Source of the DNA: a virus
Taxonomy: Duplodnaviria; Caudoviricetes
Virus record (IMG/VR): IMGVR_UViG_3300033757_000347
DNA length: 64,000 nt
Strand: one strand, 5' to 3'
In this document: positions 28,952-53,322 of the stretch, piece after piece
Numbering within the stretch: position 1 is the stretch's first letter
Layout: every line of letters begins with the position of its first letter
Notes under the pieces: model-generated
Told to the model about the DNA's origin: nothing
Database searches by the model: none
Seen by the model: the letters and a program-made list of their open reading frames with translations, nothing else
Translations under genes and position numbers: made by a program

Positions 28952-29080
28952 ATGAAAAACCTACAGTTACATAAGGCGTATCGCAGTTCCCAACCAATAT
29001 CCCTCGAAGGCTTTATTGGAACATGGAATCCATCATGCGATGACGTAAGAATGGGCTCGGGTTTGCATAGGTTGAAGTGA
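28952..29080 (+). CDS. Putative attenuator leader peptide (42 aa, contains all 20 amino acids)
   Basis: MKNLQLHKAYRSSQPISLEGFIGTWNPSCDDVRMGSGLHRLK*; A-rich start context; GATAAATA at 28917. Confidence 0.8.
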   Translation: MKNLQLHKAYRSSQPISLEGFIGTWNPSCDDVRMGSGLHRLK

Positions 29081-29147
29081 AGGTAATTATCACAAAGAAA
29101 CTTGGAAAACCCGGGCCTTCAAAAAGAAAGTCCGGGTTTTTTGTTTT
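29053..29147 (+). promoter_or_regulatory. Antiterminator/terminator switch upstream of the tRNA array
   Basis: 29053-29064 GGGCTCGGGTTT pairs with 29107-29118 AAACCCGGGCCT. The alternative is the 29106-29120/29126-29140 hairpin followed by a T-tract. Confidence 0.8.
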
Positions 29148-29167
29148 AACAGTTCTTTAACATAAAC

Positions 29168-29283
29168 GCGCTCGTGACTGAGCGGATAAGCACCAGCCGA
29201 AATTGGTACACTGAACGGGCTTACAACCTTAACGTTCAGAAATTAAGCTGGAATCTACGGAGGTTCGAATCCTTCCGAGCGCA
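29168..29283 (+). ncRNA. tRNA-like RNA with an about 50-nt insertion in the anticodon loop
   Basis: Acceptor GCGCTCG/CGAGCGC, stem CCAGC/GCTGG, T arm GGAGG-TTCGAAT-CCTTC. Confidence 0.6.
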
Positions 29284-29385
29284 CAGTAAAGGTTCTTTGA
29301 CATCTTGGAAAATATTGGCACAAAGCTAGGCGGTCTACCGCCCGCCTAGCACAAGCACGGGGCCGTGACGGTGACCCGTGCAAAT

Positions 29386-29458
29386 GCGGAAGTAGCTCAA
29401 TTGGTAGAGCATTAGCCTTCCAAGCTAAGGGTTGCGGGTTCAAGCCCCGTTTTCCGCT
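29386..29458 (+). tRNA. tRNA-Gly(TCC)
   Basis: Cloverleaf; loop CT-TCC-AA. Confidence 0.9.
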
Positions 29459-29471
29459 CTCGAATTAAATT

Positions 29472-29555
29472 GTTCCAGTGGCCTGAGCGGCGAAAGGTCC
29501 GGGCTGTTAACCCGACGAGGCAACTCCACCGTAGGTTCGAGTCCTACCTGGAACG
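29472..29555 (+). tRNA. tRNA-Asn(GTT) with long variable arm
   Basis: Loop CT-GTT-AA; G73. Confidence 0.8.
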
Positions 29556-29610
29556 CACAGCTTCTCGCTTTTTCATTTGAGCTAAGATAAATAAAGATAA
29601 AAAGCATAAA

Positions 29611-30246
29611 ATGTTAAAGTGTAAAGTATGCGGAAAAGAATTTCAAACCACCCAATCTCTCGGCGGCCACGTAAGTTCGCATTTTCGTACGAAGACAGAA
29701 AAAATAACGTCAATAAAACAATGTAAATATTGCAATGGAATATTTGAAAATGGTTGGAAACTTGGAGCGCATATCATTAATTGTAAAGCTAATCCAAACA
29801 TAAAGCAAATCATCAAAAAACGAAGTCTTACTATGAAGGGGATAAAACCTTCAATTGAGACCAAGATAAAAATTAGCAATTCTTTGAAGTTAGCACATAA
29901 AGAAAATAGAGCATGGAATATAGGAAAGAGCCGTTGGAATAATGATCCTAGTTATCCAGAAACATTTTTCATGAAAGTTATTAAAAATGAATTCTTAGAC
30001 AAATCGTATGTTAGAGAATACTCGATTGGAAAATACTCTATTGATTTCGCATGGCCTCATAAGAAAATAGCCATCGAAATAGACGGACAACAACATCAGC
30101 GATTCAAAGAATACGTAGAACGCGATGCTAAAAAAGATGAATACTTAAAAAATCATGGATGGTTAGTATTACGACTAAATTGGGTAGACGTTTACAATGA
30201 TCCAAAACGATACATAAATGAAGCTAACTCTTTTGTTGGCTCATAA
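29611..30246 (+). mobile_element. DUF559/Vsr-like endonuclease with C2H2 finger
   Basis: IDFAW, IEIDGQQH, DAKKDEYL..HGWLVLR. Confidence 0.8.
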
Positions 30247-30254
30247 AAAATAAC

Positions 30255-30378
30255 GGGGGAAAACAAACAGACTGCTCTGTCGATTTTCTTCAGAAATGAT
30301 AGCAATGATTAGAGTTGCATCGGTAAACTTCAAACTTGAAACTTTGAAATGTTGGTTCGAATCCAGCTTCCCCCACCA
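30255..30378 (+). ncRNA. Y-like/tRNA chimera A (shared module replaces the D arm; acceptor stem and CCA intact)
   Basis: GGGGGAA/TTCCCCC-A-CCA; GCTCTGTCGATTTTCT..TAGCAATGATTAGAGTTGCATCG. Confidence 0.7.
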
Positions 30379-30412
30379 ATAACGTTCGTACCACGGTAAA
30401 AGGTACACACTC

Positions 30413-30532
30413 GGGGAAGAAATTCAAAACGCTCTGTCGAATTTCTTCTGAAAGGATAGCAAAGATTAGAGTTGCATCGGAAACAATCAAACTGTCAATT
30501 TGATCACGTGAGTTCGAATCTCACCTTCCCCG
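30413..30532 (+). ncRNA. Y-like/tRNA chimera B (Asp GTC anticodon arm; module replaces the D arm)
   Basis: GGGGAAG/CTTCCCC-G; ATCAAA-CTGTCAA-TTTGAT; T arm. Confidence 0.7.
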
Positions 30533-30573
30533 CATCTTCCGCACCCTCCAGGAAATCAAAAATAGAGGGAAAT

Positions 30574-30655
30574 GGGATGTTATTCCGTAGATGGTAGCGG
30601 GGCAGACTGTAAATCTGTTGTGAAAGCTCGGGTGGTTCGACTCCATCACATCCCA
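30574..30655 (+). tRNA. tRNA-Tyr(GTA)
   Basis: Loop CT-GTA-AA; long variable arm. Confidence 0.85.
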
Positions 30656-30708
30656 CGTAGTTTACAGAGGTTTTGGTAAACAGACCGCATATAAATAAAA
30701 ATAAAGCA

Positions 30709-31176
30709 ATGCGGCTAAACCAAGAAATCGTAGACAAAATCAATGAAAATGCCAAGAACGTTAGCTCTGTTTTGGAACTTTCAGAAGTAACTGGAATCAG
30801 TAGAGTAACCCTAACCAAATATTGCAATTTGTTAGGAATACAAATTGAAGTCAAGTTACGAAAAATGAAAAGAACCGGAGGAGTAGCATTCAAATTGCTA
30901 GACATTCTCGAAGGAAAACATCCAGAATATCCGACATCGAAATTAAAAAGACGATTGATACTGGAAGGTTACAAAGAGGATCGATGCGAAGAATGTGGAA
31001 CTCCAGCAGAATGGAACGGTCGACCTTTATCATTACAAGTCGATCACATTGACGGAAATAACCGAAATCACAGACTTCAAAATCTGAGAATTTTGTGTCC
31101 AAACTGTCATTCACAAACGCATACGTTCGGAGCAAAAAACATTGTAAATAAGAAATCAAGCATAGTAAGGTCATAG
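30709..31176 (+). mobile_element. HNH homing endonuclease
   Basis: CEECG, LQVDHIDGNNRNHRLQNLRILCPNCH. Confidence 0.9.
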
Positions 31177-31292
31177 AGTTACTTCGATCACGAGTTCGAA
31201 TCTCGTACTGCGAAAGCGGTTAGGCAAGCGGTTAAGCCGTCAATCTGTAAAATTGACAACAACAAATACCTCTATCCAATGTTCTTGTTTGA
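31156..31292 (+). ncRNA. Y-like RNA C enclosing a circularly permuted tRNA-Tyr-like domain
   Basis: Module 5' strand, T arm, acceptor closed by GAAA, D arm, GTCAAT-CTGTAAA-ATTGAC, module 3' strand. Confidence 0.75.
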
Positions 31293-31299
31293 AACTTAT

Positions 31300-31368
31300 G
31301 GGCCGAATGCGACGGTTGGTGCGCGCCCCGTCCCACTGGTTATTGAGGGTTCGAATCCCTCTCGGTCC
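31300..31368 (+). pseudogene. Degenerate tRNA-like element
   Basis: GGGCCGA/TCGGTCC and a T arm are present; anticodon arm poorly paired. Confidence 0.45.
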
Positions 31369-31537
31369 TCGGATTTCCAGAAAAATACTCTTCGTATTCC
31401 CACATTTCGTAATCGCGACAAGACTTACAACGACGTAGTGGGAGATCGTTGAACACCAACGGTCTGGTATCTAATCTGACGAAATTGCCTTTCTCGTCAA
31501 TGATGCAGTCGCAGTGGTCGCAGTGGTACAAGTTCAT
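31340..31537 (-). CDS. Small Zn-finger protein antisense to the tRNA array
   Basis: CDHC..CKSC; GATAAATA just upstream on the minus strand. Confidence 0.5.
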   Translation of the reverse strand: MNLYHCDHCDCIIDEKGNFVRLDTRPLVFNDLPLRRCKSCRDYEMWEYEEYFSGNPRTERDSNPQ

Positions 31538-31624
31538 AGCAGTATTTATCGAAAATACTTCACTTCAATTATTTAACATCACCACTTTAGAGTGCAATGC
31601 TCAGATAAATAAAAATAAAGTGAA

Positions 31625-32017
31625 ATGAGAATAGTTGAAGATTTTGTAAGAGAAACGCCAAGGGATATTCGTAAGCAAATGTTAAAGCTTGATGAACCTT
31701 GCCACGAAAGAGGATTAAAGTATTCGACTCAGTTAATCGCACTAGTTGCTTATCATTACGATACGACGATGCCAGTAAATGGAAACACTCTAGTCGTTTG
31801 CCACGGTTGTCATAATTCAAAGTGCAGTAATCCAAATCACATGTATTGGGGTACAAAAGCTGACAATCAACTCGATGAATACGAAAACGGAGCAATATCA
31901 ATTTACGAACGAATGCTTAATAAGTACGGCAAAGAAAAAACGTCAAGCATGATGAAAAAGAATTCATCTAAAGGCGGTAAATCGCCAAGAAAAAATAAAG
32001 TGTTAATGGCCTCGTAG
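31625..32017 (+). mobile_element. HNH (His-Me finger) endonuclease
   Basis: VCHGCHNSKCSNPNHMYWGTKADN. Confidence 0.8.
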
Positions 32018-32092
32018 CTCAGTCAGGTTGCGCAAGCTTAGAGCTTCCGCCTTTTAAGCGGAAAGTCGTTGGTTCGAATCCAACCGGGGTCA
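32008..32092 (+). tRNA. tRNA-Lys(TTT) with enlarged D loop
   Basis: Loop CT-TTT-AA; extra hairpin in the D loop. Confidence 0.8.
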
Positions 32093-32137
32093 CAGATTGG
32101 AAAGGTTCGAGTCCCTCCGGGCCTACCAAAGAAATTT

Positions 32138-32214
32138 GGTCTCGTAGTAGAGTTGGTCACAATGTCTGCCTGTCACGCAGAAGGTCGCGGGTTCGAATCC
32201 CGTCGAGACCGCCA
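32138..32214 (+). tRNA. tRNA-Asp(GTC)
   Basis: Cloverleaf; GCCA end. Confidence 0.9.
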
Positions 32215-32220
32215 AAAAAT

Positions 32221-32299
32221 GGTATCGTAGTTCAGCCTGGTCTAGAATGCCTGCCTGTCACGCAGAGGGTCGAGGGTTCAAATCCCTTCGGTACCGCCA
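32221..32299 (+). tRNA. tRNA-Asp(GTC)
   Basis: Cloverleaf; GCCA end. Confidence 0.9.
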
Positions 32300-32304
32300 G
32301 TATT

Positions 32305-32413
32305 GATTTGTAGTGAGAAACAGAGTTTCATCGTTGGTTATCACAGGTTCGAATCCTGTACCAAGCTTCCATAATGCTTAGTATCAAGTCACTCTTTTCG
32401 GCTTTCTCAAATC
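32305..32413 (+). ncRNA. Y-like RNA D
   Basis: GATTTG-TAGTGA-GAAA(C)AGAGT..ACTCT-TTTC-GGCTTTCT-CAAATC enclosing a T arm and a hairpin. Confidence 0.7.
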
Positions 32414-32473
32414 TTTAATCAAAACAAAAGGGTGTAAGTTCGAATATAAATAAAATAAACAATAAACGAACTT

Positions 32474-33193
32474 ATGAAAATCTGTGAAAACTGTCAATGT
32501 GAACATAATGGAAGTTACGGTTCCGGACGATTTTGTTCAGAAAAATGTTCTAGATCCTTCGTTACTAAAGCAAAGCGTAAGGAAATAAACGAAAAAATTA
32601 GTAAAAAATTAAGTAATCTAGGACACGCACCAATAATTAAATTATGCAGCGTTTGTAACAATCAATTTACGGTAAACTGGGCAAAGAGAACTCAACAATA
32701 TTGTTCAAAAAAATGTTCAGGTAAAATAAATGGTATACTTGGAGGTAATGCTATTAAATCAAATACTTCAGCAATGGGAGGATTTAGACCAAATGGAGGA
32801 AGGCCTAAAACTTTTACATACGTTAATTGGTTAAATGAAAAAATGTCTTTAAACAAAGATGAAATTCTAGTTGCTAAAGTATTAGATCATTTAAAAATCA
32901 AGTGGAATAGAAATTTAGTTGGGTTCGATTATGTAGACATTGATGGTAAAATTAGAAAATACTATCCAGATTTTTATATTTCGGATTTTAATACTTACGT
33001 TGAGTATAAGGGTTGGTTAAATGAAAAAATATTACATAAGATGAATGATGCGATAAACAAAAATTCATTGAAACTAGTCATTATTTACTCAAATGATAAG
33101 AGATATAATAAATTGGGGTTAAGCTTACGAGAATTAGAAATCAACCCAGAATTATTAATACAAAAATGCGTCTATGGTGAAATGGTATCATAA
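32474..33193 (+). mobile_element. PD-(D/E)xK homing endonuclease with Zn fingers
   Basis: FCSEKC, YYPDF, YVEYKG; AT-rich. Confidence 0.8.
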
Positions 33194-33241
33194 TGGTCTC
33201 CAAAACCACAGTTCTCTGTTCGAATCGGAGTAGGCGTGCCA
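33168..33241 (+). tRNA. tRNA-Trp(CCA)
   Basis: Loop CT-CCA-AA; GCCA end. Confidence 0.85.
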
Positions 33242-33251
33242 CATTATTAAT

Positions 33252-33324
33252 GCCTCTTTAGCTCAGACGGTAGAGCGACTGTTTCGTACTCAGTAGGTCG
33301 TCGGTTCGATTCCGGCATGAGGCT
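33252..33324 (+). tRNA. tRNA-Thr(CGT)
   Basis: Loop TT-CGT-AC. Confidence 0.85.
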
Positions 33325-33330
33325 CTCAAC

Positions 33331-33406
33331 GCCTTTGTAGCTCAGCTGATAGAGCCACTGATTTGTACTCAGAAGGTCGGGGGTTTGAATCCCTCCAAAG
33401 GCTCCA
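33331..33406 (+). tRNA. tRNA-Thr(TGT)
   Basis: Loop TT-TGT-AC; CCA end. Confidence 0.85.
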
Positions 33407-33412
33407 CAAAAT

Positions 33413-33619
33413 CACCTCTTAGCTCAGCGGTTAGAGCGTCCGGTTGAGGGCCGGAACTTGAGGACTTCGGTAAGGTACTCGTTTACTTTTGCGCAGAGGT
33501 AACCGATGAAGTAGCCGGGAGAGTCAAGGTAGACGAACCTGAAAATCAAGATGAGGGTACCCGAATCAAGACCATACGGTGTAGTCGAGAAGTCAGAGGT
33601 TCAAATCCTCTAGGGGTGT
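33413..33619 (+). ncRNA. tRNA-like RNA (GAG anticodon) with an about 135-nt insertion in the variable region
   Basis: CACCTCT/AGGGGTG, D arm, TCCGG-TTGAGGG-CCGGA, T arm AGAGG-TTCAAAT-CCTCT. Confidence 0.65.
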
Positions 33620-33744
33620 CGATGAGCCGGCAGGCCACCGGATCGTAGTTCCTCGCTTTCCCTGATCGTAAGGTCAAACGACGAGCCGCACCGTAAGGCG
33701 GACGGGTTGGCAACTCCCGCTGACATTGAACAAAGTTGCATAAC

Positions 33745-33821
33745 GGGCATATAGCTCAGTTGGTTAGAGCATCTGACTGATATTCAGAAGGCCGTAGGTT
33801 CGACTCCTACTTTGCCCACCA
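33745..33821 (+). tRNA. tRNA-Ile(GAT)
   Basis: Cloverleaf; ACCA end. Confidence 0.9.
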
Positions 33822-33828
33822 ATAAATT

Positions 33829-33904
33829 CGAGTAGTAGCGCAGCTGGTAGCGTACAACGTTCGGGACGTTGGGGTCGGAGGTTCGAACCCTCTCTACTCG
33901 ACCA
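33829..33904 (+). tRNA. tRNA-Pro(CGG)
   Basis: Loop TT-CGG-GA. Confidence 0.9.
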
Positions 33905-33916
33905 ATATTAAACTAA

Positions 33917-33990
33917 CGAGTAGTGGCGCAGCTGGCTAGCGTTCTTGATTTGGGATCAAGGGGTCGGAGGTTCGAATCCTCTCTACTCGA
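33917..33990 (+). tRNA. tRNA-Pro(TGG)
   Basis: Loop TT-TGG-GA. Confidence 0.9.
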
Positions 33991-33992
33991 CT

Positions 33993-34103
33993 AAGTAGTA
34001 GTAATGGATAGAGTTACTTCGTCGCCTAACGGTAAGGCAATTGTCTCTTAAACAATCGATGCGGTTCAAATCCGCCTGTTTACTCTCCCGACTTTCTCTA
34101 CTT
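33993..34103 (+). ncRNA. Y-like RNA E (module replaces the acceptor stem; Lys CTT anticodon)
   Basis: D arm, ATTGT-CTCTTAA-ACAAT, T arm, enclosed by AGAGTTACTTCG..ACTCT-CCCGACTTTCT. Confidence 0.75.
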
Positions 34104-34148
34104 TATTTTAACCGCAGTCTTAGATAAATAGAACTAAACTACGGTCAA

Positions 34149-34739
34149 ATGTATCATATCATCTATAAGATTACGAACCTAAAGAATAATAAGATTTATG
34201 TTGGGTATCATGGAACAGAAAATCTTTCAGATTCCTACATGGGTTCAGGGAAAGCAATAAAACTTGCAATACGAAAAACCGGAATAGAAAATTTTGCTAA
34301 AGAAATTTTATACGTTTATCCAACTAAGGAAGAAGCCATTGCTAAAGAGATTGAAATAGTAAATGAAGCTTTTATCGCTAGGAAAGATACCTATAATATC
34401 AAGTTGGGCGGTACTGGAGGTTGGGAACATACGTGGAACGATCCAAAAAGAATCGAAGGAATTAAGAAATCGTTTGAAACAGGTAGAAATAAAGGTTGGC
34501 CGCTATCAGCAGAGGCCAGACAAAAACTCGGAAAATCTTCATTCAAAGGAAAACATCATTCGTTTGAAACTAAAAAGAAAATAAGTGATTCTAAAAAAAT
34601 GAATGAAGTTGACTCATTAAAAAGATTGAAAGAATACCAAAGTATTGATAAATCTTGGGGTTGGATAACTAAATTAGCAAAAAGTTGGGGGATAACGAAT
34701 ACCCAAGTTAAAAGATACATTAAATCAATGGGGATTTAG
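34149..34739 (+). mobile_element. GIY-YIG (Seg-like) homing endonuclease
   Basis: IYKITNLKNNKIYVG, YMGSG, YNIKLGG. Confidence 0.85.
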
Positions 34740-34806
34740 CTCAGATGGCCAGAGCGCCTGCCCTGCAAGCAGGATGTCACGAGTTCGACTCTCGTAATCT
34801 CCACCA
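34730..34806 (+). tRNA. tRNA-Ala(TGC)
   Basis: G3:U70; ACCA end. Confidence 0.85.
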
Positions 34807-34814
34807 CACTAAAT

Positions 34815-34884
34815 GGGCGCGATCCCGAAGGCAGGGCGCTTCACTTGCAATGAAGATGATTGGGTTCAATTCCCACGTGGTCCA
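34815..34884 (+). tRNA. tRNA-Ala(TGC), atypical
   Basis: CTTCA-CTTGCAA-TGAAG; imperfect acceptor stem and D arm. Confidence 0.55.
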
Positions 34885-34888
34885 CTAC

Positions 34889-34974
34889 AAGAAGTAGCAA
34901 GGAACAGAGATACTTCGAAATCAAACGGTGAATTTGAAACTTCCAAAAGATGCTCTTTCCAACATTCTCTTCTT
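34889..34974 (+). ncRNA. Y-like RNA F (module plus one anticodon-like hairpin)
   Basis: GGAA(C)AGAG/CTCTTTCC bulged helix; TCAAA-CGGTGAA-TTTGA. Confidence 0.65.
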
Positions 34975-34980
34975 CGTTTT

Positions 34981-35056
34981 GCTCCCGTAGCTCAGGGGTT
35001 AGAGCAGGAAGCTTATACCTTCAAGGTCGGTGGTTCAATTCCATCCGGGAGTACCA
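34981..35056 (+). tRNA. tRNA-Ile(TAT)
   Basis: Loop CT-TAT-AC; ACCA end. Confidence 0.8.
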
Positions 35057-35059
35057 CAT

Positions 35060-35134
35060 GCTCCGTTCGTCTAGTCGGCCAAGGACGTCAGGTTTTCATC
35101 CTGGAGATCAGGGGTTCGAATCCCCTACGGAGTA
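35060..35134 (+). tRNA. tRNA-Glu(TTC)
   Basis: Loop TT-TTC-AT. Confidence 0.85.
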
Positions 35135-35147
35135 CGCAAAGCCAAAT

Positions 35148-35221
35148 GGTCCTGTAGACGAACAGGTTAAGTCGTTGCCCTTTCAAGGCAAAGGTTGCGG
35201 GTTCGAGCCCCGTCGGGACTA
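35148..35221 (+). tRNA. tRNA-Glu(TTC)
   Basis: Loop CT-TTC-AA. Confidence 0.85.
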
Positions 35222-35230
35222 CTCAAAATT

Positions 35231-35304
35231 GATCGTATAGCTCAGTTGGTTAGAGCGCTTCCGTGACATGGAAGAGGCCGTAGGTTCGAATCCCACTATG
35301 ATCA
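35231..35304 (+). tRNA. tRNA-Val(GAC)
   Basis: Cloverleaf. Confidence 0.85.
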
Positions 35305-35309
35305 CACAA

Positions 35310-35387
35310 GCTCTCTTAACTCAGTTGGTTCAGAGTGTCACTCTTACAAAGTGAAAGTCGTAAGTTCGAATCTTACAGAGAGCACCA
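35310..35387 (+). tRNA. tRNA-Val(TAC)
   Basis: Cloverleaf; ACCA end. Confidence 0.9.
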
Positions 35388-35393
35388 ATAATT

Positions 35394-35469
35394 GGAAGCG
35401 TAGCTCAGTCGGTAGAGCGCAAGCCTGAAGAGCTTGGCGTCGGCGGTTCGATTCCGTCCGTTTCCACCA
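35394..35469 (+). tRNA. tRNA-Phe(GAA)
   Basis: Cloverleaf; ACCA end. Confidence 0.9.
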
Positions 35470-35472
35470 CAT

Positions 35473-35544
35473 TGCGGGGTAGAGCAGAGGTAGCTCGTGA
35501 GACTCATAATCTCAAGGTCGTGGGTTCGACCCCCACTCCCGCTA
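35473..35544 (+). tRNA. tRNA-Met(CAT), initiator-like
   Basis: Unpaired 1:72; fMet-type D arm. Confidence 0.8.
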
Positions 35545-35607
35545 CTAAACGCAGTCGGATGGTAACTCCAAAGAACGGTTCGCCGTGTTGCCGGAGGGCT
35601 GCTCCAT

Positions 35608-35679
35608 GCCGAGGTAGTTCAGAGGCAGAACAGTTGAATCATAATCAACAAGTCGGGATTTCAAAATTCCCCCTCGGTA
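35608..35679 (+). tRNA. tRNA-Met/Ile2(CAT)
   Basis: GTTGA-ATCATAA-TCAAC. Confidence 0.75.
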
Positions 35680-35688
35680 CTAAGATTT

Positions 35689-35779
35689 GGAGAGGTGTCC
35701 GAGCGGCCGAAGGAGCATATCTGGAAAGTATGTGATCGCCAAAAGCGGTTCATGGGTTCGAATCCCATTCTCTCCGCCA
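35689..35779 (+). tRNA. tRNA-Ser(GGA)
   Basis: Long variable arm; GCCA end. Confidence 0.9.
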
Positions 35780-35785
35780 AAACAT

Positions 35786-35868
35786 GCTCTCATGGCGGAA
35801 TAGGTAGACGCGAGGGTCTTAAAAACCCTTGTCCGTAGGGCGTGTCGGTTCGATTCCGACTGGGAGTA
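35786..35868 (+). tRNA. tRNA-Leu(TAA)
   Basis: Leu-type D arm; long variable arm. Confidence 0.9.
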
Positions 35869-35876
35869 CTAAATTT

Positions 35877-35958
35877 GCCCGTATGGCGGAACTGGTAGAC
35901 GCGCTGCACTCAAAACGCAGTTTCGAAAGGAGTGTCGGTTCGACTCCGACTATGGGTA
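35877..35958 (+). tRNA. tRNA-Leu(CAA)
   Basis: Leu-type D arm; long variable arm. Confidence 0.9.
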
Positions 35959-36023
35959 CAAAACAGTAGAGTGGTAACTTTTATTATCGCTATTCATATA
36001 AATAAAAGAAAACACTCTACCTA

Positions 36024-36626
36024 ATGTTACCAAAGGATAAAGAATGTCCATTTTGTCATAAATTTTATTCTACTGCAGGAATAGGTACACATATTTGGAG
36101 AAACCACGGAGAAGGCAAACAACACGATCCAAATATTAATTACAAAAATGGACGTATTGTGTGGAATAAAAACTTAACCAAAGAAACTAACGAAAGTGTT
36201 AAAAGCATGGCTGAAAAACAAAAAGCTTTGGTTAGACCTAAAAAATCTGAAGAAACTCGTAAAAAAATATCGATTGCTGCAAAAGCTAGAGGATTTGGAG
36301 GGTATCGGCCTCACCCAAATAGAGGCGAACGATACAAAGGAATTTGGTTTGATTCCAAATGGGAAGTTAAAGTTGCTAAATCTTTAGACGAAAATCAAAT
36401 AAGATGGGAAAGACCGAAAATCGGATTTGTTTGGTCTGACGCCGGAAATAAGTACTATCCTGATTTTTATCTTATAGATTACGACGTATATTTGGATCCT
36501 AAAAATTCGTATTTGATGATTAAGGACGCTGAAAAAATACACGAATCTCAAAAACGAAACAATATTAAAGTTCTAGTATTAACTGAACACTTCCTTAATT
36601 GGGAAAAAATAAAATTGCTCTTGTAG
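36024..36626 (+). mobile_element. PD-(D/E)xK homing endonuclease
   Basis: FDSKWE, YYPDF, YLDPKN; NUMOD-like SEETRKKIS. Confidence 0.8.
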
Positions 36627-36687
36627 TTAAATGGCATAACGCATCCTTGGTAAGGATGAATTTCGAGTTCGATTCTCGATTTGAGCT
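36617..36687 (+). tRNA. tRNA-Thr(GGT)
   Basis: CATCC-TTGGTAA-GGATG. Confidence 0.8.
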
Positions 36688-36690
36688 CAC

Positions 36691-36886
36691 AGTTAATCGA
36701 AAGTACTTAACGCGGGAAACTGAGGAAATTGGTGCCACCTTTGCTGGTTGTCGGAGCTTAACAGCGTTCGTACGACATTGGTGCAAGTCAAACAGGCTTA
36801 GAGGGTCAGCAACTCTACGATAGCCGGGTTGATGCTAAGATAAATGTTAGGTGAGAAACAGAAGTCCAATTACGAAACGATTAACT
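36691..36886 (+). ncRNA. rnpB: Minimal RNase P RNA-like ribozyme (about 196 nt)
   Basis: P1 AGTTAATCG/CGATTAACT; P2 ACTTAAC/GTTAGGT; GAGGAAATTGG and AAACAGAAGTCCAATTA (P4); GGTGCAAG; AGATAAATG. Confidence 0.75.
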
Positions 36887-36890
36887 TTTT

Positions 36891-36962
36891 GCAGGAATAG
36901 CTCAGAGGTAGAGCATCTCGTTGCCAACGAGAGGGTCGTGAGTCCGATTCTCATTTCCTGCT
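36891..36962 (+). tRNA. tRNA-Gly(GCC)
   Basis: Loop TT-GCC-AA; U73. Confidence 0.85.
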
Positions 36963-37016
36963 CAGATCAAGGTTAAGTGCAAAGGTTCACATATAAATAA
37001 AATAAAGTGATTTTGC

Positions 37017-37689: not shown

Positions 37690-37750
37690 ACTAAAGAGGA
37701 ACAACTTGTGCAGGTGCCTCAGGGGACTGCAGCCCCACTGCACTCTACAC

Positions 37751-37824: not shown

Positions 37825-37845
37825 CATACAAATTTGCTAGTACAC

Positions 37846-44871: not shown

Positions 44872-46041
44872 ATGAAAGAAAACAACAAGATTTGGTCCCA
44901 GCAAGACAACACTTATTGGCTTCGTAGCTTGGGCATCAGCCACAAGCTCTTACCCAATGCAGTTTACACGTTAGAACTCGATCCTCTTGGAAACCCATTT
45001 CTGAAGGAAGTACAAAAGGAATTCTCATTCGATTACAAAATATACGGCTTAGAGACCCATCTTGTCGACCGGGTTAAGAAAACATTCTCATCAGTTGAGG
45101 GAAACCTCGGGATCCTTCTGAACGGACAAAGAGGAACAGGAAAGACGGTCACTGCGAAGCTCATGTGCAATGCTCTTAAGATGCCAGTCATCGTAATGGA
45201 CAGGTTCATTGAAGATGGACACAGGTTTCTGAACAGCATACCGCAGGACATCATCATCTTCATCGATGAGTACGAGAAGATCTTCGAAGAAAATTTTCAG
45301 CTTCTTTCCATCATGGACGGAGCTATGAACTCCGAACACAAGAGAGTGTTCATACTTACCACTAACGAACTTTACGTTAATGACAATCTGATCCAGCGCC
45401 CAGGGAGAATTCGTTACCTTAAAACGTTCAAGGATCTATCCAGAGAAGCGATCACTGAAATCGTAAACGATTGCCTCACTAACACAAAATACAGAGACGA
45501 CGTTCTAAAGTTCGTTTCCACTCTGGAAATGATAACTGTTGACGTCGTAAAGACCATCTGCCAGGAAGTAAACCTTCACAACCAACCGCCTGAAAAGTTC
45601 GCAGAATTCTTCAACGTGAAGAAAGTAAGCGGGAAGTTCGACGTTTACTTGGTGGACGATCGCGGTGCCAGGACTACCACTCTGCCTTTCGTTGCTAACG
45701 CTAAGGTCTCTCCGAACCAGGATTTCGAAGAGGACGATCACATCTACATCAACAATGACTACATCGGTAGGATCATTGACGTCCTTGACGAAAACATCAT
45801 TAAGGTTCGCATAAGCTGCGAGGAAGACGGTTTGAACCGTACTCAGAAAAAGTTCCTTGGAATCCAACAGGAAGAAGAAGCAATTCACTCATCGAACGAG
45901 ATGGAAATCGTAGCAAAGCCGTCCAGACGTAAACGCCAATCCAAAAAAGTTGAGGAAGAAGGTCGGATCCTGGAAGCAGAGTTCAACGTTGAAATCTCAA
46001 CGTCTGAAGCATACAACCGCATGTACCGTTACGTACTTTAA
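44872..46041 (+). CDS. AAA+ ATPase
   Basis: GQRGTGKT, IFIDEYEK, LTTN, RPGRIRY. Confidence 0.9.
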   Translation: MKENNKIWSQQDNTYWLRSLGISHKLLPNAVYTLELDPLGNPFLKEVQKEFSFDYKIYGLETHLVDRVKKTFSSVEGNLGILLNGQRGTGKTVTAKLMCNALKMPVIVMDRFIEDGHRFLNSIPQDIIIFIDEYEKIFEENFQLLSIMDGAMNSEHKRVFILTTNELYVNDNLIQRPGRIRYLKTFKDLSREAITEIVNDCLTNTKYRDDVLKFVSTLEMITVDVVKTICQEVNLHNQPPEKFAEFFNVKKVSGKFDVYLVDDRGARTTTLPFVANAKVSPNQDFEEDDHIYINNDYIGRIIDVLDENIIKVRISCEEDGLNRTQKKFLGIQQEEEAIHSSNEMEIVAKPSRRKRQSKKVEEEGRILEAEFNVEISTSEAYNRMYRYVL

Positions 46042-50887: not shown

Positions 50888-50960
50888 CGCGGGGTGGCAG
50901 CAGAGGTAGCTCGCAAGGCTCATAACCTTGAGGTCGGAGGTTCGAATCCTTCTCCCGCAA
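50888..50960 (+). tRNA. tRNA-fMet(CAT)
   Basis: C1:A72 mismatch; loop CT-CAT-AA. Confidence 0.9.
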
Positions 50961-51012
50961 CACTTGTAGGTATCGCATCGGGCAAGTACTGGAATCTACC
51001 TACTATTTTTTT

Positions 51013-51044
51013 ACCTCATCCTGAAAGGGGTGAGGTTTTTTATT
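51013..51044 (+). terminator. Intrinsic terminator between tRNA-fMet and the RNA ligase gene
   Basis: ACCTCATCC-TGAAA-GGGGTGAGGT plus T-tract. Confidence 0.7.
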
Positions 51045-51058
51045 GGTACAATACTCTC

Positions 51059-52096
51059 ATGGAAGCACCAGTACTACATACACGAGATGAATTTCGCGAG
51101 AAGGTTTTCGAACGCGATAATCACAGTTGCGTGATATGTGGAAAGCCAGCAAAAGACGCACATCACATAATAGAACGGAGACTGTTTTCAAACGGCGGGT
51201 ACTATTTGGAAAATGGAGCTTCTCTGTGCGAGGAACACCACATAGCAGCCGAACAGACTACTCTGTCGTGCGACGAAATCAGAGAAAAAGCAGGTATCAC
51301 TAGAATTGTTATACCGGATCAGCTATACGATGATAATGCGTATGATAAGTGGGGAAACATAATCCTTCCGACTGGAAATCGTTTGAAAGGTGAACTGTTC
51401 TACGATGAATCAGTTCAAAAGATACTCAAGCAGGGAGGAGTCTTGGACCTGTTTCAAAAGTACGTAAAGTACCCAAGAACGATGCACCTTCCGTGGAGCA
51501 ACCTGCTAAAGGACGATAGAATACTAGAAAACGACGAACATTTCATCGGTCGTGAAGTAGTATGCACACTGAAGATGGACGGCGAAAACACGACTATGTA
51601 CAACGATAAGATCCATGCTCGTTCGCTGGACTCAGCTTCTCACGAGACCAGAAACTGGGTAAAAGGTCTTTGGGCTAGAATATCGTGGATGATTGACGAT
51701 AACATGCGACTGTGCGGAGAGAACCTTTACGCGGTACATTCCTTAAAATACGACAGCTTACCATCCTATTTTATGCTATTTTCGGTGTGGGTAGACAATG
51801 TCTGCTTAAGCTGGAAGGAAACGGAAGAGTACGCTGGTATTTTGGGATTGCAAACGGTGCCCGTCATATACCAGGGAATTTACGACAGAGAAAAGATCGA
51901 GAAAGCATTTGCTAAGTACGCAGACACTAACGAAGGTTACGTGATTAGATTGGCTGACCAATTTCTCTATTCTGACTTCAGGCGAAGCATAGCAAAATAC
52001 GTTCGCCCGCAGTTCAGGCAAGCTGTCAACAATTCTCACGGACACTGGATCTCAAAAAAGATAGAAACTAACACGCTGAAAGGTGACAATTCATAG
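51059..52096 (+). CDS. HNH domain fused to an ATP-dependent RNA ligase
   Basis: VFERDNHSCVIC..DAHHI..N..LCEEHH; KYPRTMHLPWS, motif I KMDGEN, GEN, EGYVIR, AKYVR. Confidence 0.85.
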   Translation: MEAPVLHTRDEFREKVFERDNHSCVICGKPAKDAHHIIERRLFSNGGYYLENGASLCEEHHIAAEQTTLSCDEIREKAGITRIVIPDQLYDDNAYDKWGNIILPTGNRLKGELFYDESVQKILKQGGVLDLFQKYVKYPRTMHLPWSNLLKDDRILENDEHFIGREVVCTLKMDGENTTMYNDKIHARSLDSASHETRNWVKGLWARISWMIDDNMRLCGENLYAVHSLKYDSLPSYFMLFSVWVDNVCLSWKETEEYAGILGLQTVPVIYQGIYDREKIEKAFAKYADTNEGYVIRLADQFLYSDFRRSIAKYVRPQFRQAVNNSHGHWISKKIETNTLKGDNS

Positions 52097-52160
52097 AAAA
52101 AGTGGTACGTTAAACTCCACTAAGCAATTTTGCACCACAATAACAAAAAAATCAAACAAG

Positions 52161-52247
52161 ATGAAGTAGAGTATCAGAAGTCCCGTCGGCGTTTTTGAAT
52201 CGCAAGCTGTTAATTCACAAAATTCTCAACAAAAAAATTCAAAAACA
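52161..52247 (+). promoter_or_regulatory. M-K-amber leader with a helix masking the next start region
   Basis: ATG AAG TAG at 52161, in frame with ATG 52248; GTTTTTGAAT (52191-200) complements ATTCAAAAAC (52237-46). Confidence 0.6.
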
Positions 52248-52547
52248 ATGACAACAAAAGACTTAAAATCGGAAATCAAAGCCCTTTCGCAGAAGCAGAG
52301 GGAAACCAAGGAACAGAGAAAGACCGAAAAATTTACCGGAACTCGTTCGTTGACACCATGGGAAGCACAAATGCTCGCACTTCGGCAGAAAGAGCAGCTC
52401 AAGCACATGTTCATCGCGTATGCTCTGCTCAGAAACAAACCGATCGAATCAGCGATCTCTGAAAAGACCGAATGGTCGAAAAAGAAGGTCGACGAAATCA
52501 TGGCGAAGTATGCAGAAGTTGTATGTGTTAGTGAGAACGGATCTTAA
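52248..52547 (+). CDS. Basic hypothetical protein
   Basis: 99 aa; HMFIAYALLR. Confidence 0.7.
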   Translation: MTTKDLKSEIKALSQKQRETKEQRKTEKFTGTRSLTPWEAQMLALRQKEQLKHMFIAYALLRNKPIESAISEKTEWSKKKVDEIMAKYAEVVCVSENGS

Positions 52548-52806
52548 GGGATCCAGCCCGGCCGTCCAGGCCGGCCACGCAGTCGCCCAGTGGATGCTTG
52601 ATAATCCAAACCAAACTTGGAACAATCAAACGTTGATCTACTTAAACGTCGGTGACGCAGACTCGCTGCACAGGTGGGAAATCAAGCTCCAGTACCGAGA
52701 AATGGAATTCACCTAGTTCAAGGAACCGGACCTAAACGACGAAACCACCGCGATCGCTTGCCTAACCGATAACCGAAACATCTTTAGCAGCCTTCCGCTC
52801 CTGTGA
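52510..52806 (+). CDS. PTH2-like peptidyl-tRNA hydrolase with an in-frame amber codon at 52714-52716
   Basis: KLYVLVRTDL..AVQAGHAV...EFT(TAG)FKEPDLNDETTAIAC...LPLL*. Confidence 0.75.
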
Positions 52807-52834
52807 GCGGAGGGCTTCCTTTTAACAGAAAACA

Positions 52835-53260
52835 ATGGACACTTACATAGATCACAAGAACGTGGTGAAGAGACTCGTGGACGAGTACAAGTTCCACGGA
52901 GGTTTGGTGGTAGCGTACGATTTCGACAACACTGTGTACGATTATCACAAGAAGGGGGACACCTACGACATGGTAGTAGACCTTCTAAAAACCTTGGAAA
53001 AAGTTCCAGGAATAAGCTTAGTGGTTTGGACCGGAACTGCTAACGAACGTCACGATTTTGTAAGAGTCTACCTTCAAGCAAACGACATTCCGTACCACAC
53101 GATAAACGAGAACCCATCTTTCTTCAAATCTTCGAGTAGAAAGATCTTTTACAGCATTCTTCTCGATGATAGAGCTGGTTTAGCTTCAGCGTACAATGCT
53201 CTGGTTGACTTTTTGAACGAAATTGGGGTACAGTATTCTTACGAAAAACTGGGTTCGTAG
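52835..53260 (+). CDS. HAD-family phosphatase
   Basis: AYDFDNT, VWT, INEN, LLDDRA. Confidence 0.8.
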   Translation: MDTYIDHKNVVKRLVDEYKFHGGLVVAYDFDNTVYDYHKKGDTYDMVVDLLKTLEKVPGISLVVWTGTANERHDFVRVYLQANDIPYHTINENPSFFKSSSRKIFYSILLDDRAGLASAYNALVDFLNEIGVQYSYEKLGS

Positions 53261-53322
53261 TTCAGCGGTAGAACACCGGTCTCTAAAACCGTTAGTCGAG
53301 GGTTCGAATCCCTCCGTTCCCA
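53251..53322 (+). tRNA. Amber suppressor tRNA (anticodon CTA) with a Trp-like scaffold
   Basis: CCGGT-CTCTAAA-ACCGT; T arm GAGGG-TTCGAAT-CCCTC; two U:U mismatches in the acceptor stem. Confidence 0.8.

What the first reader, a model, noticed from the sequence alone, without database searches (positions are those of the whole stretch)
28952..53322. Integrated translation-rescue locus: sensor, full tRNA set, RNase P RNA, Ro60 with tRNA-mimic RNAs, ligase, PTH2 and suppressor
Seen within 24 kb on one strand: the attenuator, about 42 array tRNAs covering all 20 amino acids, an RNase P-like RNA, Ro60 and ten module-bearing tRNA mimics. Also present are a CX5R phosphatase, Nudix, a second fMet tRNA, HNH-RNA ligase, PTH2, a HAD phosphatase and an amber suppressor. 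Known: phage tRNAs and ligase/phosphatase pairs counter tRNA-cleaving defences (T4 Pnk/Rnl1 against PrrC), and bacterial rsr-yrl operons are linked to RtcB RNA repair. Inference: a layered sense, replace, decoy and repair counter-defence system.
Basis: partly seen in the sequence, partly recalled or inferred. Interest (0 to 1): 0.88.

Follow-up and report, generated by a model that had tools for sequence, protein, structure and literature searches.

The report
Phage tRNA island with RNA helpers
A large uncultured phage packs into 24 kb a full tRNA set and several unusual devices: an apparent stalling-sensitive switch, a half-sized RNase P RNA, a Ro60 protein with ten tRNA-like partner RNAs, and a hydrolase gene that needs the phage's own suppressor tRNA. 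These parts are real but shuffle independently in related phages, so they do not form one fixed machine.

Summary
Nearly every listed part is present on the + strand.

- **tRNAs:** 44 genes, all 20 amino acids plus a CUA suppressor, interleaved with eight homing-endonuclease-like ORFs; a ninth follows the suppressor.
- **RNase P-like RNA:** 196 nt, with a catalytic core and no specificity domain.
- **Ro60 and partner RNAs:** a Ro60 homologue and ten RNAs sharing one bulged terminal stem. In 83 distinct copies from 31 loci, 65 have a perfect 6-bp partner; controls give 3-4.
- **Leader:** a 42-codon ORF with conserved terminator and antiterminator pairings.
- **Ligase:** an HNH-RNA ligase fusion.
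- **PTH2-fold gene:** its in-frame TAG is kept at the same codon in three further relatives, one with the suppressor beside it.

The "integrated layered system" reading is only partly supported. Across six Ro60 phages, only the tRNA array, Ro60 and stem-bearing RNAs travel together. The ligase, Cys-phosphatase and DUF5661 are unique to this phage. PanD and AdSS lie about 70 kb away in the closest relative. No polynucleotide kinase, RtcB or RnpA was found. Strong terminators split the region into several units.

Best reading: a mosaic tRNA-supply and maintenance island. Earlier notes of this scan describe mini RNase P RNAs and Ro60/Y-like arrays on other DNA. The all-20-amino-acid leader and the UAG-gated PTH2 are the freshest leads.

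The parts
28852..28881 (+). sigma-70-like promoter candidate (TTGGCC-18-TAGAAT) about 70 nt upstream of the leader
   Evidence: consensus match only
28952..29080 (+). 42-codon leader ORF; all 20 amino acids appear within the first 32 codons
   Evidence: Two sequence variants in 7 other contigs plus the window both keep all 20
29053..29142 (+). attenuator. Region 2 (29053-29064, leader codons 34-38) can pair with the terminator 5' arm (29106-29117). Terminator hairpin plus U-tract is 29106-29142
   Evidence: terminator -18.6 kcal/mol, antiterminator -25.7 kcal/mol. Both are kept in variant B with a compensatory change
29168..29283 (+). tRNA-like RNA with a roughly 50-nt expansion of the anticodon arm
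   Evidence: Rfam tRNA 35.6 bits; fold
29386..41051 (+). main tRNA array, 41 ARAGORN calls
29611..30246 (+). homing-endonuclease-like ORF (C2H2 zinc finger + DUF559/Vsr-like)
30255..30377 (+). Y-like RNA 1: acceptor and T arm, encoded CCA, with the shared module inserted as a GAAA-capped hairpin at tRNA positions 8-9
30413..30534 (+). Y-like RNA 2, paralogue of RNA 1 (74% identical)
30673..31176 (+). HNH homing-endonuclease ORF
31156..31292 (+). Y-like RNA 3. Payload order is T arm, GAAA-capped acceptor-like hairpin, D arm, anticodon arm (GUA): the YrlA-like permuted order
31296..31372 (+). acceptor/T-arm RNA carrying GCCGAAUG, which fits the YrlA GNCGAAN0-1G motif
   Evidence: read by eye; motif from PMC4201824
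31625..32017 (+). His-Me/HNH_3-like endonuclease ORF (weak hits)
32305..32413 (+). Y-like RNA 4 (variant module UAGUGA...UUUCAUCG) with a T arm
32474..33193 (+). endonuclease-like ORF (PHROG HNH and resolvase families)
33993..34103 (+). Y-like RNA 5. Payload is D arm, anticodon arm (CUU), T arm
34149..34739 (+). GIY-YIG + NUMOD3 homing endonuclease
34889..34974 (+). Y-like RNA 6. Payload is a single anticodon-arm-like hairpin
36024..36626 (+). endonuclease-like ORF
36691..36886 (+). RNase P RNA-like gene lacking the specificity domain, between tRNA-Thr and tRNA-Gly
37017..37622 (+). NUMOD3 + TnsA-N-like endonuclease
38677..38831 (+). Y-like RNA 7. Payload is a circularly permuted tRNA-Leu-like domain: T arm, 7-bp acceptor hairpin with ACCA, D arm
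39413..39480 (+). Y-like RNA 8: module with almost no payload
39688..40338 (+). TnsA-like endonuclease ORF (weak hit)
41132..42760 (+). Ro60 homologue (TROVE ring + vWA domain)
42772..42803 (+). strong intrinsic terminator after Ro60
42806..42925 (+). RNA with a terminal stem, CGAA-containing helices and a T arm (canonical-looking Y RNA candidate)
43140..43262 (+). Y-like RNA 9. Payload is D arm, anticodon arm (GCA), T arm
   Evidence: 29 consensus pairs, 15 with compensatory changes in 6 orthologues
43545..43678 (+). Y-like RNA 10. Payload is a near-complete tRNA-Pro(UGG)-like body; a U-run follows the 3' stem
43703..44119 (+). Cys-phosphatase-like ORF (CSAGLLRS)
   Evidence: weak
44402..44839 (+). 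Nudix hydrolase
44872..46041 (+). AAA ATPase
50888..50961 (+). tRNA(CAU) with an initiator-like acceptor (C1 opposite A72)
51059..52096 (+). HNH-RNA ligase fusion (KMDG nucleotidyl-transferase motif)
52510..52806 (+). PTH2-fold gene with an in-frame TAG at 52714-52716
52789..52816 (+). strong terminator at the end of the read-through ORF
52835..53260 (+). HAD-like ORF (DFDNT motif I)
53251..53324 (+). amber-suppressor tRNA (anticodon CUA)
   Evidence: 64.9 bits
53377..54060 (+). GIY-YIG-like/NUMOD3 homing-endonuclease ORF

Best explanation
This is the tRNA island of a large uncultured phage. The record holds 174 kb, estimated about 67% complete. Start sites almost lack Shine-Dalgarno motifs, which would fit a Bacteroidota host.

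The island is a mosaic of separately mobile modules that all serve phage-run tRNA supply and upkeep.

1. **Switch.** A promoter-proximal leader peptide with mutually exclusive terminator and antiterminator hairpins probably couples array transcription to ribosome progress. This is inferred.
2. **tRNA set.** A near-complete set of 44 tRNAs is transcribed in one direction. It has been colonised by eight homing-endonuclease-like genes, with a ninth just after the suppressor. This is shown.
3. **RNase P-like RNA.** A 196-nt RNA with the catalytic core only probably helps mature the poly-tRNA transcripts, likely with the host protein subunit. This is inferred.
4. **Ro60 and partner RNAs.** A Ro60 homologue and ten small RNAs share one bulged terminal stem and display tRNA-like payloads. 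They probably form Ro/Y-type particles. The RNAs, the stem covariation and the gene linkage are shown. Binding and purpose are inferred.
5. **Accessory genes.** A variable tail includes an HNH-RNA ligase, a Nudix hydrolase, phosphatase-like genes and a PTH2-fold hydrolase. The hydrolase can be completed only when the neighbouring amber-suppressor tRNA reads a conserved in-frame UAG. The conservation of the UAG is shown; read-through itself is inferred.

A counter-defence role is plausible for several modules. It is not demonstrated, and the modules are not one co-inherited system.
For: **tRNAs and endonucleases.**

**Attenuator.**
- The terminator and antiterminator are kept in both leader variants, with a compensatory change (C-G in one, U-A in the other).
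- Both variants contain all 20 amino acids in 31-32 codons, although Ala, Glu and Val sit at different positions.
- For an ORF of this length, P = 3.7e-4.

**RNase P-like RNA.**
- Rfam E 1e-7 over the whole model.
- The CR-I segment AAAUUGG and the CR-V segment CCAAUU can pair as a P4 helix. A covariance model cannot score this pseudoknot, so it is independent evidence.
- The J5/15-P15 blocks align with E. coli rnpB.
- P1 shows compensatory changes in L011.
- The RNA is conserved in 6 contigs.

**Ro60.**

**Shared module.**
- About 90 hits lie on the Ro60 strand and 1 on the other strand in 30 loci. These include loci whose Ro60 is only 37% identical and the GenBank record LR745206.1 at 32%.
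- Helix 1 is perfectly paired in 65 of 83 distinct copies, against 3-4 of 83 in controls, with 46 different 6-mers.
- 15 of 29 pairs are compensatory in 6 orthologues.
- A 2.6-kb cassette of Ro60 plus Y-like RNAs is 96.5% identical to G006, while its flanks are 65-80% identical.

**PTH2-like gene.**
- 83 full-length homologues have a sense codon at the TAG column. Three further relatives (65-91% identity) keep TAG at the same codon with a conserved C-terminus. One of them has tRNA(CUA) 370 nt downstream.
- The read-through model has pLDDT 94 and matches Pth2 structures at TM 0.74-0.80.
- Two core strands lie after the TAG.

**Mosaicism.**
Against:
- The RNase P-like RNA scores below Rfam's gathering threshold. 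It is absent from five more distant Ro60 phages. No RnpA gene was found in the phage.
- The module does not carry the YrlA GNCGAAN0-1G motif, and the Rfam YrlA model scores at most 27 bits in the window.
- Windows of 26-31 residues holding all 20 amino acids occur by chance about once per genome in the relatives. No independent all-20 leader heads the arrays of the other phages.
- In G006 the PTH2-like gene has Val at the TAG site and a TAA in its N-terminal region. The gene may therefore be decaying in some lineages.
- The phage uses TAG as an ordinary stop in 24 of 150 long ORFs, so a strong suppressor would be costly.
Confidence: 0.65

Rival explanations
1. The 24 kb form one integrated, layered counter-defence system against tRNA-targeting nucleases. 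The leader senses tRNA damage, the array replaces cleaved tRNAs, the Y-like RNAs act as decoys on Ro60, and the ligase and phosphatases repair cuts.
For: - All parts share one strand and concern tRNA.
- Payload anticodon loops differ between orthologues on a fixed scaffold (GCA, GAA, UUU, GAU), as expected for decoys under diversifying pressure.
- Iyer et al. 2021 (PMC7824862) list ROT/TROVE proteins beside RNA ligases among jumbo-phage RNA-repair gear.
- Homing endonucleases in phage tRNA regions can amplify anti-defence tRNA loci (PMC13096335, abstract).
Against: - Only the tRNA array, Ro60 and modules co-occur across six phages.
- The ligase, Cys-phosphatase and DUF5661 are unique to this phage.
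- Pfam RNA_ligase matches in the relatives lie 11-45 kb from Ro60 and are mostly sub-threshold.
- No kinase or RtcB was found to make nuclease-cut ends ligatable.
- Several strong terminators divide the region.
- PanD, AdSS and an AAA ATPase sit in the middle and have no link to the model.
Confidence: 0.2
2. Plain translational take-over. The array simply matches phage codon usage or sustains translation while the host genome is degraded. The RNase P-like RNA, Ro60 and Y-like RNAs only handle the extra processing and quality-control load. No host defence is involved.
For: - The set is near complete: 38 distinct anticodons and an initiator-like tRNA.
- An attenuator coupled to ribosome progress would give simple demand-based feedback.
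- Every Ro60 phage examined carries 18-44 tRNAs next to Ro60.
- Two relatives even carry a tmRNA there.
Against: - It does not explain ten different non-decoding tRNA mimics, the UAG-gated PTH2 or the HNH-RNA ligase.
- tRNA-Lys(UUU) is missing, so the set is not self-sufficient.
Confidence: 0.35
3. Debris model. The extra tRNA-like pieces are scars of homing-endonuclease traffic and tRNA duplication. The RNase P-like RNA is a captured, decaying fragment of host rnpB. The TAG in the PTH2-like gene is an inactivating mutation.
For: - Eight endonuclease-like genes sit in the array, with duplicated tRNAs (Asp, Glu, Leu-UAG, Pro-UGG) and half-tRNA-looking pieces.
- The G006 PTH2-like gene looks damaged.
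Against: - Extensive covariation in the shared stem.
- Strict strand bias and Ro60 linkage across 32-99% Ro60 identity.
- The RNase P-like RNA is conserved, with P1 covariation.
- TAG is kept at one codon over 65-100% protein identity, with a conserved downstream frame.
Confidence: 0.05

Closest known systems
Bacterial and phage Ro60 (Rsr) with YrlA/YrlB Y RNAs (Chen et al. 2014, PMC4201824; Rfam RF02553); Thermus phage phiLo Ro60 with Yrl1/Yrl2 (PMC12135203)
   Same: - A TROVE + vWA protein with small RNAs on the same strand close by.
- The RNAs combine a terminal stem with a tRNA-like domain.
- Two of the ten (31156-31292, 38677-38831) have the YrlA order: T arm, acceptor hairpin, D arm.
- One nearby RNA carries GCCGAAUG, which fits the GNCGAAN0-1G motif.
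   Different: - Ten or more RNAs instead of one to four, spread through 13 kb of tRNA array.
- The shared handle is a different bulged stem (G-U-AG-YAA ... AGAG-WUACUUCG, paired with CUCU-N-UUUCU-C).
- Payloads range from nothing to a full tRNA body, and in two cases the handle is a hairpin inserted into a tRNA.
- The Rfam YrlA model scores at most 27 bits here, against a gathering score of 69.
Bacterial type A RNase P RNA (E. coli M1/rnpB; Rfam clan CL00002) and the roughly 200-nt type T RNase P RNA of Pyrobaculum (recalled from memory; see also PMC13462272, listed)
   Same: - The CR-I GAGGAAA and CR-V ACAGAAG boxes flank a P4 pairing.
- The J5/15-P15 and AGAUAAAUG blocks align with E. coli rnpB.
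- The size and the loss of the S-domain resemble type T.
   Different: - Phage-encoded, inside a tRNA array.
- The S-domain is reduced to one hairpin, and there is no P18.
- P4 is AU-rich.
- The Rfam score of 37.7 bits is below every gathering threshold.
- Activity is untested.
T4-type tRNA cluster with Seg/HNH homing endonucleases, and Pnkp + Rnl1 repair of PrrC-cut tRNA-Lys (textbook); T6 SegB amplification of tRNA loci against Septu (PMC13096335)
   Same: - A phage tRNA cluster interleaved with homing endonucleases.
- An ATP-dependent RNA ligase is nearby.
- tRNA-Tyr at 30574-30656 is about 90% identical to the tRNA-Tyr of T4-like enterobacterial phages.
   Different: - No polynucleotide kinase or RtcB was detected in the 174 kb held.
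- The ligase belongs to the HNH-fused PF09414 family, not Rnl1.
- The ligase is not conserved in relatives.
Leader-peptide transcription attenuators (trpL, hisL, pheL and similar; textbook)
   Same: - A short ORF.
- Regions 1:2, 2:3 and 3:4 can pair alternatively.
- A terminator with a U-tract.
- Region 2 lies within the last codons of the ORF.
   Different: - There is no run of one regulatory codon. Instead all 20 amino acids appear once or a few times in 31-32 codons.
- The controlled genes are tRNAs rather than a biosynthetic operon.
- I know of no described precedent, and I ran no literature search on this point.
Phage suppressor tRNAs and in-frame stop codons (Borges et al. preprint, 10.1101/2021.08.26.457843)
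   Same: A phage-encoded CUA tRNA together with an in-frame TAG in a phage gene.
   Different: - The genome is not recoded: TAG ends 24 of 150 long ORFs, and code-11 ORFs cover 92% of it.
- That UAG sits at a site where homologues tolerate many different residues.

Membership tests
Ro60 / TROVE (PF05731 + vWA_Ro60 PF25045) | Full-length sequence homology to a solved Ro60 | tested here: met
   phmmer against PDB: 9KOP/9L5Y (phage phiLo Ro60), E 1e-9, residues 38-520 aligned to 26-476. PHROG 850, 4e-30
Ro60 / TROVE (PF05731 + vWA_Ro60 PF25045) | Pfam gathering scores for TROVE and vWA | tested here: inconclusive
   TROVE 22.0 bits against a cut-off of 23; VWA_2 26.8 against 27; vWA_Ro60 20.3 against 27.7. 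All fall just under
Ro60 / TROVE (PF05731 + vWA_Ro60 PF25045) | Binds Y RNAs | not testable with these tools
   Only genomic linkage of the module to Ro60 is shown
YrlA (Rfam RF02553) | Score at or above the gathering threshold (69 bits) | tested here: not met
   Best window hits are 27.1 and 25 bits, both on tandem tRNAs. Relatives reach 33-35 bits
YrlA (Rfam RF02553) | tRNA-like domain in the order T arm, acceptor hairpin, D arm | tested here: met
   Met for 31156-31292 and 38677-38831 by reading the sequence. The other eight RNAs have other topologies
YrlA (Rfam RF02553) | GNCGAAN0-1G motif near the 5' end | tested here: not met
   Absent from the ten module RNAs. Present only in the separate RNA at 31296-31372 (GCCGAAUG). 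Near-matches occur at 42818-42840
Bacterial/archaeal RNase P RNA (Rfam CL00002) | Gathering score | tested here: not met
   37.7 bits against 84 for RF00373, E 1e-7
Bacterial/archaeal RNase P RNA (Rfam CL00002) | Catalytic core: CR-I, CR-IV, CR-V and a P4 pairing | tested here: met
   GAGGAAAUUGG, AGAUAAAUG and ACAGAAGUCCAAUUAC are present. AAUUGG pairs with CCAAUU
Bacterial/archaeal RNase P RNA (Rfam CL00002) | Specificity domain (P7-P14, CR-II/III) | tested here: not met
   About 117 model positions are replaced by one hairpin of about 30-45 nt
Bacterial/archaeal RNase P RNA (Rfam CL00002) | Cleaves pre-tRNA 5' leaders | not testable with these tools
   Needs an in vitro assay
Leader-peptide attenuator | Short ORF followed by a terminator, with a mutually exclusive antiterminator that overlaps the ORF | tested here: met
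   ViennaRNA energies for both variants; covarying position
Leader-peptide attenuator | Cluster of regulatory codons for the sensed amino acid | tested here: not met
   There is no repeated codon run. All 20 amino acids are sampled instead
PTH2 (PF01981) | Pfam gathering score | tested here: not met
   19.0 bits against 23 with read-through. About 12 homologues carry PF01981 in the precomputed table
PTH2 (PF01981) | PTH2 fold | tested here: met
   AlphaFold2 pLDDT 94.3. Foldseek against 2ZV3, 3ERJ, 1XTY and 1Q7S: E 1e-5 to 3e-4, TM 0.74-0.80. Profile against PDB, E 1e-4
PTH2 (PF01981) | Catalytic residues and peptidyl-tRNA hydrolysis | not tested
   The family-invariant residues here are Q20, G22, H23, W37, Y44, E72, P73 and T80. 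They were not mapped onto the known active site
ATP-dependent RNA ligase (PF09414), HNH-fused subfamily | Domain score and the KxDG adenylylation motif | tested here: met
   105 bits against 27. phrog_24030, 2.9e-125, full length. KMDG is seen in the translation. The HNH part matches IscB HNH and several HNH PHROGs
T4-type healing-and-sealing pair (Pnkp + ligase) | Polynucleotide 5'-kinase partner | tested here: not met
   No AAA_33 match over the cut-off and no RtcB in the 174-kb record. The record is about 67% complete
Stop-codon-recoded phage (TAG read as sense) | TAG avoided as a stop; coding density restored only under recoding | tested here: not met
   TAG ends 24 of 150 long ORFs. Code-11 ORFs already cover 92%

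The most novel reading that the evidence does not exclude
The island carries two translational checkpoints that read tRNA function itself.

1. **Leader checkpoint.** A leader peptide deliberately samples all 20 amino acids. A stall at any codon, for instance because a host tRNA is depleted or cleaved, would free the antiterminator and switch on the phage's own tRNA array.
2. **UAG checkpoint.** A PTH2-type peptidyl-tRNA hydrolase is made only when the phage's amber-suppressor tRNA is present and intact.

Together with a phage-made RNase P ribozyme and Ro60 particles that display tRNA look-alikes, this would be a self-regulating viral system for tRNA homeostasis.
Probability: 0.25. Interest if true: 0.9.

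Novelty: new variant of a known kind. Interest (0 to 1): 0.66.

Why it matters
Phage tRNA arrays are usually read as codon-usage aids or as spare parts against tRNA-cleaving defences. This locus shows how much extra RNA machinery can gather around such an array.

- **RNase P-like RNA.** A catalytic-core-only RNase P RNA. No paper turned up in my searches that describes a phage copy.
- **Ro60 partner RNAs.** A family of RNAs built from one protein-handle-like stem and interchangeable tRNA parts.
- **Testable switches.** Two regulatory devices can be tested directly. One is an attenuator whose leader holds all 20 amino acids. The other is a hydrolase gene gated by a conserved UAG next to its suppressor tRNA.

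If the two switches work as proposed, they would be the first examples known to me of a virus sensing general tRNA sufficiency.

The negative result matters too. The parts are a shuffling toolkit rather than one system. Each should therefore be tested separately, and co-location should not be taken as evidence of co-function.

Tried and rejected
- **RNase P-like RNA in distant relatives.** My covariance model R1 found the RNA only in the closest clade. Five fuller records of more distant Ro60 phages gave nothing. Rfam at E <= 0.05 on three of their arrays gave tRNAs, tmRNA and weak YrlA hits, but no RNase P.
- **First pairing model for the module.** My first idea, a local hairpin pairing UAGYAA with UURCU, was dropped. 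C opposite A is common in it. RNAalifold and the partner search show a long-range bulged stem instead.
- **Genome-wide TAG recoding.** Rejected.
- **Bacteroidota-type promoter.** The motif TTTG-N17-21-TANNTTTG has no match in the window.
- **All-20 leaders elsewhere.** None heads the arrays of four other Ro60 phages. Their shortest all-20 windows lie inside ordinary proteins, on the wrong strand or across tRNA genes.
- **Missing partners.** RnpA, RtcB and AAA_33-type kinase searches in the phage record were empty or sub-threshold.
- **PurZ idea.** The AdSS-like gene matched PurA structures best, so I did not pursue the idea that it is PurZ.
- **Megablast against GenBank phages.** It found only short tRNA matches.

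Full report
**Source.** The window is the minus strand of bases 102941-166940 of a 174,479-bp IMG/VR virus record that CheckV rates about 67% complete. The genome uses the standard code. Code-11 open frames cover 92% of it, and TAG ends 24 of 150 long ORFs. Only 4% of long ORFs have a Shine-Dalgarno-like motif, and their leaders are A-rich. From general knowledge, that fits a Bacteroidota host. However, no Bacteroidota-type promoter motif occurs in the window, so the host remains undetermined.

**Observation.**
- ARAGORN tRNAs between 29386 and 53324. They cover all 20 amino acids with 38 distinct anticodons, including three CAU tRNAs and one CUA suppressor. Rfam agrees.
- tRNA(CAU) at 50888 has an initiator-like C1 opposite A72.
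- Eight ORFs inside the array carry homing-endonuclease domains: HNH, GIY-YIG/NUMOD3, DUF559/Vsr and TnsA-N. A ninth follows the suppressor.

**Attenuator.**
- A sigma-70-like promoter candidate at 28852-28881 precedes a 42-codon ORF at 28952-29080.
- A hairpin with a U-tract follows at 29106-29142 (-18.6 kcal/mol).
- Leader codons 34-38 (29053-29064) can instead pair with the terminator's 5' arm (-25.7 kcal/mol). The first codons can pair with that same segment. This gives the classical four-region layout.
- The leader occurs in 7 other contigs as two variants.
- Both variants keep the terminator and the antiterminator. One position changes on both sides, from C-G to U-A.
- Both hold all 20 amino acids within 31-32 codons. 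The only Ala, Glu and Val sit at different positions in the two variants.
- A random ORF of this composition does this with P = 3.7e-4.
- As calibration, windows of 26-31 residues containing all 20 occur about once per genome by chance in the relatives. No other Ro60 phage has such a leader at its array.
- I rate the attenuator likely and the 'all-20 by design' reading possible.

**RNase P-like RNA.**
- 36676-36880 matches the archaeal RNase P model end to end (37.7 bits, E 1e-7), with the specificity-domain positions deleted.
- The segment AAUUGG after GAGGAAA can pair with CCAAUU after ACAGAAG. This P4 pseudoknot is invisible to the covariance model, and both strands differ from the consensus.
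- Blocks around GCAAG-P15 align with E. coli rnpB fetched from NC_000913.3.
- Six contigs carry the RNA. P1 shows compensatory changes in L011, which also has an insertion of about 150 nt.
- More distant Ro60 phages lack it, and the phage record has no RnpA gene.
- Earlier notes of this scan describe similar mini RNase P RNAs in many other large phages. None of my three literature searches turned up a paper describing one.

**Ro60 and its RNAs.**
- The 542-residue protein aligns over nearly its whole length with the solved Ro60 of Thermus phage phiLo (E 1e-9).
- Ten RNAs share one handle. The 5' half reads N-G-U-AG-YAA, a few bases, AGAG, then WUACUUCG. The 3' half, after the payload, reads CUCU, 8-10 bases ending in UUU, then CU-C-N.
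- Helix 1 has a bulged U. Then come an asymmetric internal loop and helix 2.
- In six orthologues of RNA 9, 15 of 29 consensus pairs show compensatory changes. The anticodon loops differ: GCA, GAA, UUU, GAU.
- Over 83 distinct handles from the window and 30 related loci, 65 have a perfect 6-bp helix-1 partner downstream. Controls give 3-4. There are 46 different 6-mers.
- Handles lie almost only on the Ro60 strand, about 90 against 1. They flank Ro60 even where the protein is only 37% identical or 32% identical in GenBank record LR745206.1.
- Payloads vary widely:
  - almost nothing (RNA 8);
  - one anticodon-like hairpin (RNA 6);
  - D, anticodon and T arms (RNAs 5 and 9);
  - a nearly whole tRNA (RNA 10);
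  - permuted T arm, acceptor hairpin and D arm, as in YrlA (RNAs 3 and 7).
- In RNAs 1 and 2 the handle is re-connected as a GAAA-capped hairpin inside a tRNA.
- Two further RNAs, at 31296-31372 and 42806-42925, carry CGAA-type motifs like published Y RNAs.
- A 2.6-kb cassette of Ro60 plus its downstream RNAs is 96.5% identical to phage G006, while the flanks are 65-80% identical. Protein and RNAs therefore move together.

**Downstream genes.**
- Confirmed: Nudix, AAA ATPase, PanD and an adenylosuccinate-synthetase homologue, and an HNH-RNA ligase fusion of a known phage family (Iyer et al. 2021).
- The Cys-phosphatase and HAD assignments rest on motifs and weak or PHROG-level hits.

**PTH2-like gene.** This is the most informative of the downstream genes.
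- Read through its TAG (52714-52716), it has 83 full-length homologues with a sense codon at that column. The column is variable: E, G, V, T and others.
- Three further relatives at 91, 82 and 65% identity keep TAG at exactly that codon, with a conserved C-terminus. One of them carries tRNA(CUA) 370 nt downstream.
- The read-through model (pLDDT 94) has the Pth2 fold (TM 0.74-0.80). Two core strands lie after the TAG.
- A strong terminator follows the extended ORF.
- This points to programmed amber read-through by the neighbouring suppressor. In G006, however, the gene has Val at that site and a TAA further upstream.

**Integration test.**
- In five other Ro60 phages (two about 81-83% complete, three rated complete), Ro60 always sits beside a same-strand array of 18-44 tRNAs with handles in or next to it.
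- Only the closest relative, G006, shares the leader, the RNase P-like RNA, Nudix, AAA, the PTH2-like gene, HAD and the suppressor.
- None shares the ligase, Cys-phosphatase or DUF5661.
- G006 keeps PanD and AdSS about 70 kb away.
- Pfam RNA_ligase matches in the relatives are 11-45 kb from Ro60.
- No kinase or RtcB was found.
- Strong terminators follow Ro60 and the PTH2-like gene; a weaker one follows tRNA-Met3.

**Verdict.** The region is a mosaic island of tRNA-centred modules, not one co-inherited system. I found no published description of the RNase P-like RNA or of this particular Ro60 handle, though earlier notes of this scan record both kinds on other DNA. The leader with all 20 amino acids and the UAG-gated PTH2 are the most original and most testable leads.

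Noticed in passing
window 33413-33630: A cloverleaf tRNA-Leu(GAG)-like RNA with normal acceptor, D, anticodon and T arms and an insert of about 135 nt at the variable-arm position. Its fold is no more stable than shuffled sequence (z = 0).
   Followed up: partly
window 29168-29283: The first RNA after the attenuator is a tRNA-like molecule whose anticodon arm is extended by a hairpin of about 50 nt. It is 96% conserved in L044. In G006 a different acceptor/T-arm RNA takes its place.
   Followed up: partly
window 41055-43696, against G006 141089-143086 and 140104-140787: The Ro60 gene and the RNAs downstream of it are about 96.5% identical between two phages whose neighbouring genes are only 55-80% identical. 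This looks like a recently exchanged cassette. A second patch at 30244-31430 (Y-like RNAs 1-3 plus the HNH gene) is 90% identical.
   Followed up: partly
L031 12812-13190 and L033 12924-13264: Two more distant Ro60 phages carry a tmRNA gene between Ro60 and the tRNA array (67.8 bits, above gathering, and 29.2 bits). No tmRNA was found in this window.
   Followed up: no
L011 about 2090-2240: One relative's RNase P-like RNA has an insertion of about 150 nt just before the AGAUAAAUG box.
   Followed up: no
window 30574-30656: The tRNA-Tyr is 87-91% identical to the tRNA-Tyr region of T4-like Citrobacter, Klebsiella and Escherichia phages. Nothing else in the 25 kb matches a GenBank phage at megablast level, apart from two short pieces (1% of the query, about 80% identity) in the unannotated uncultured phage LR745206.1.
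   Followed up: no
window 47252-47704 and 49417-50556: An aspartate decarboxylase (PanD) homologue and a short (379-residue) adenylosuccinate-synthetase homologue sit between the Ro60 block and the ligase. The latter matches PurA structures best. Their role in a phage is unclear.
   Followed up: partly
window 28740-28880: Five AAAAAAGTT-type repeats lie upstream of the leader promoter candidate. They might be a regulator binding array.
   Followed up: no
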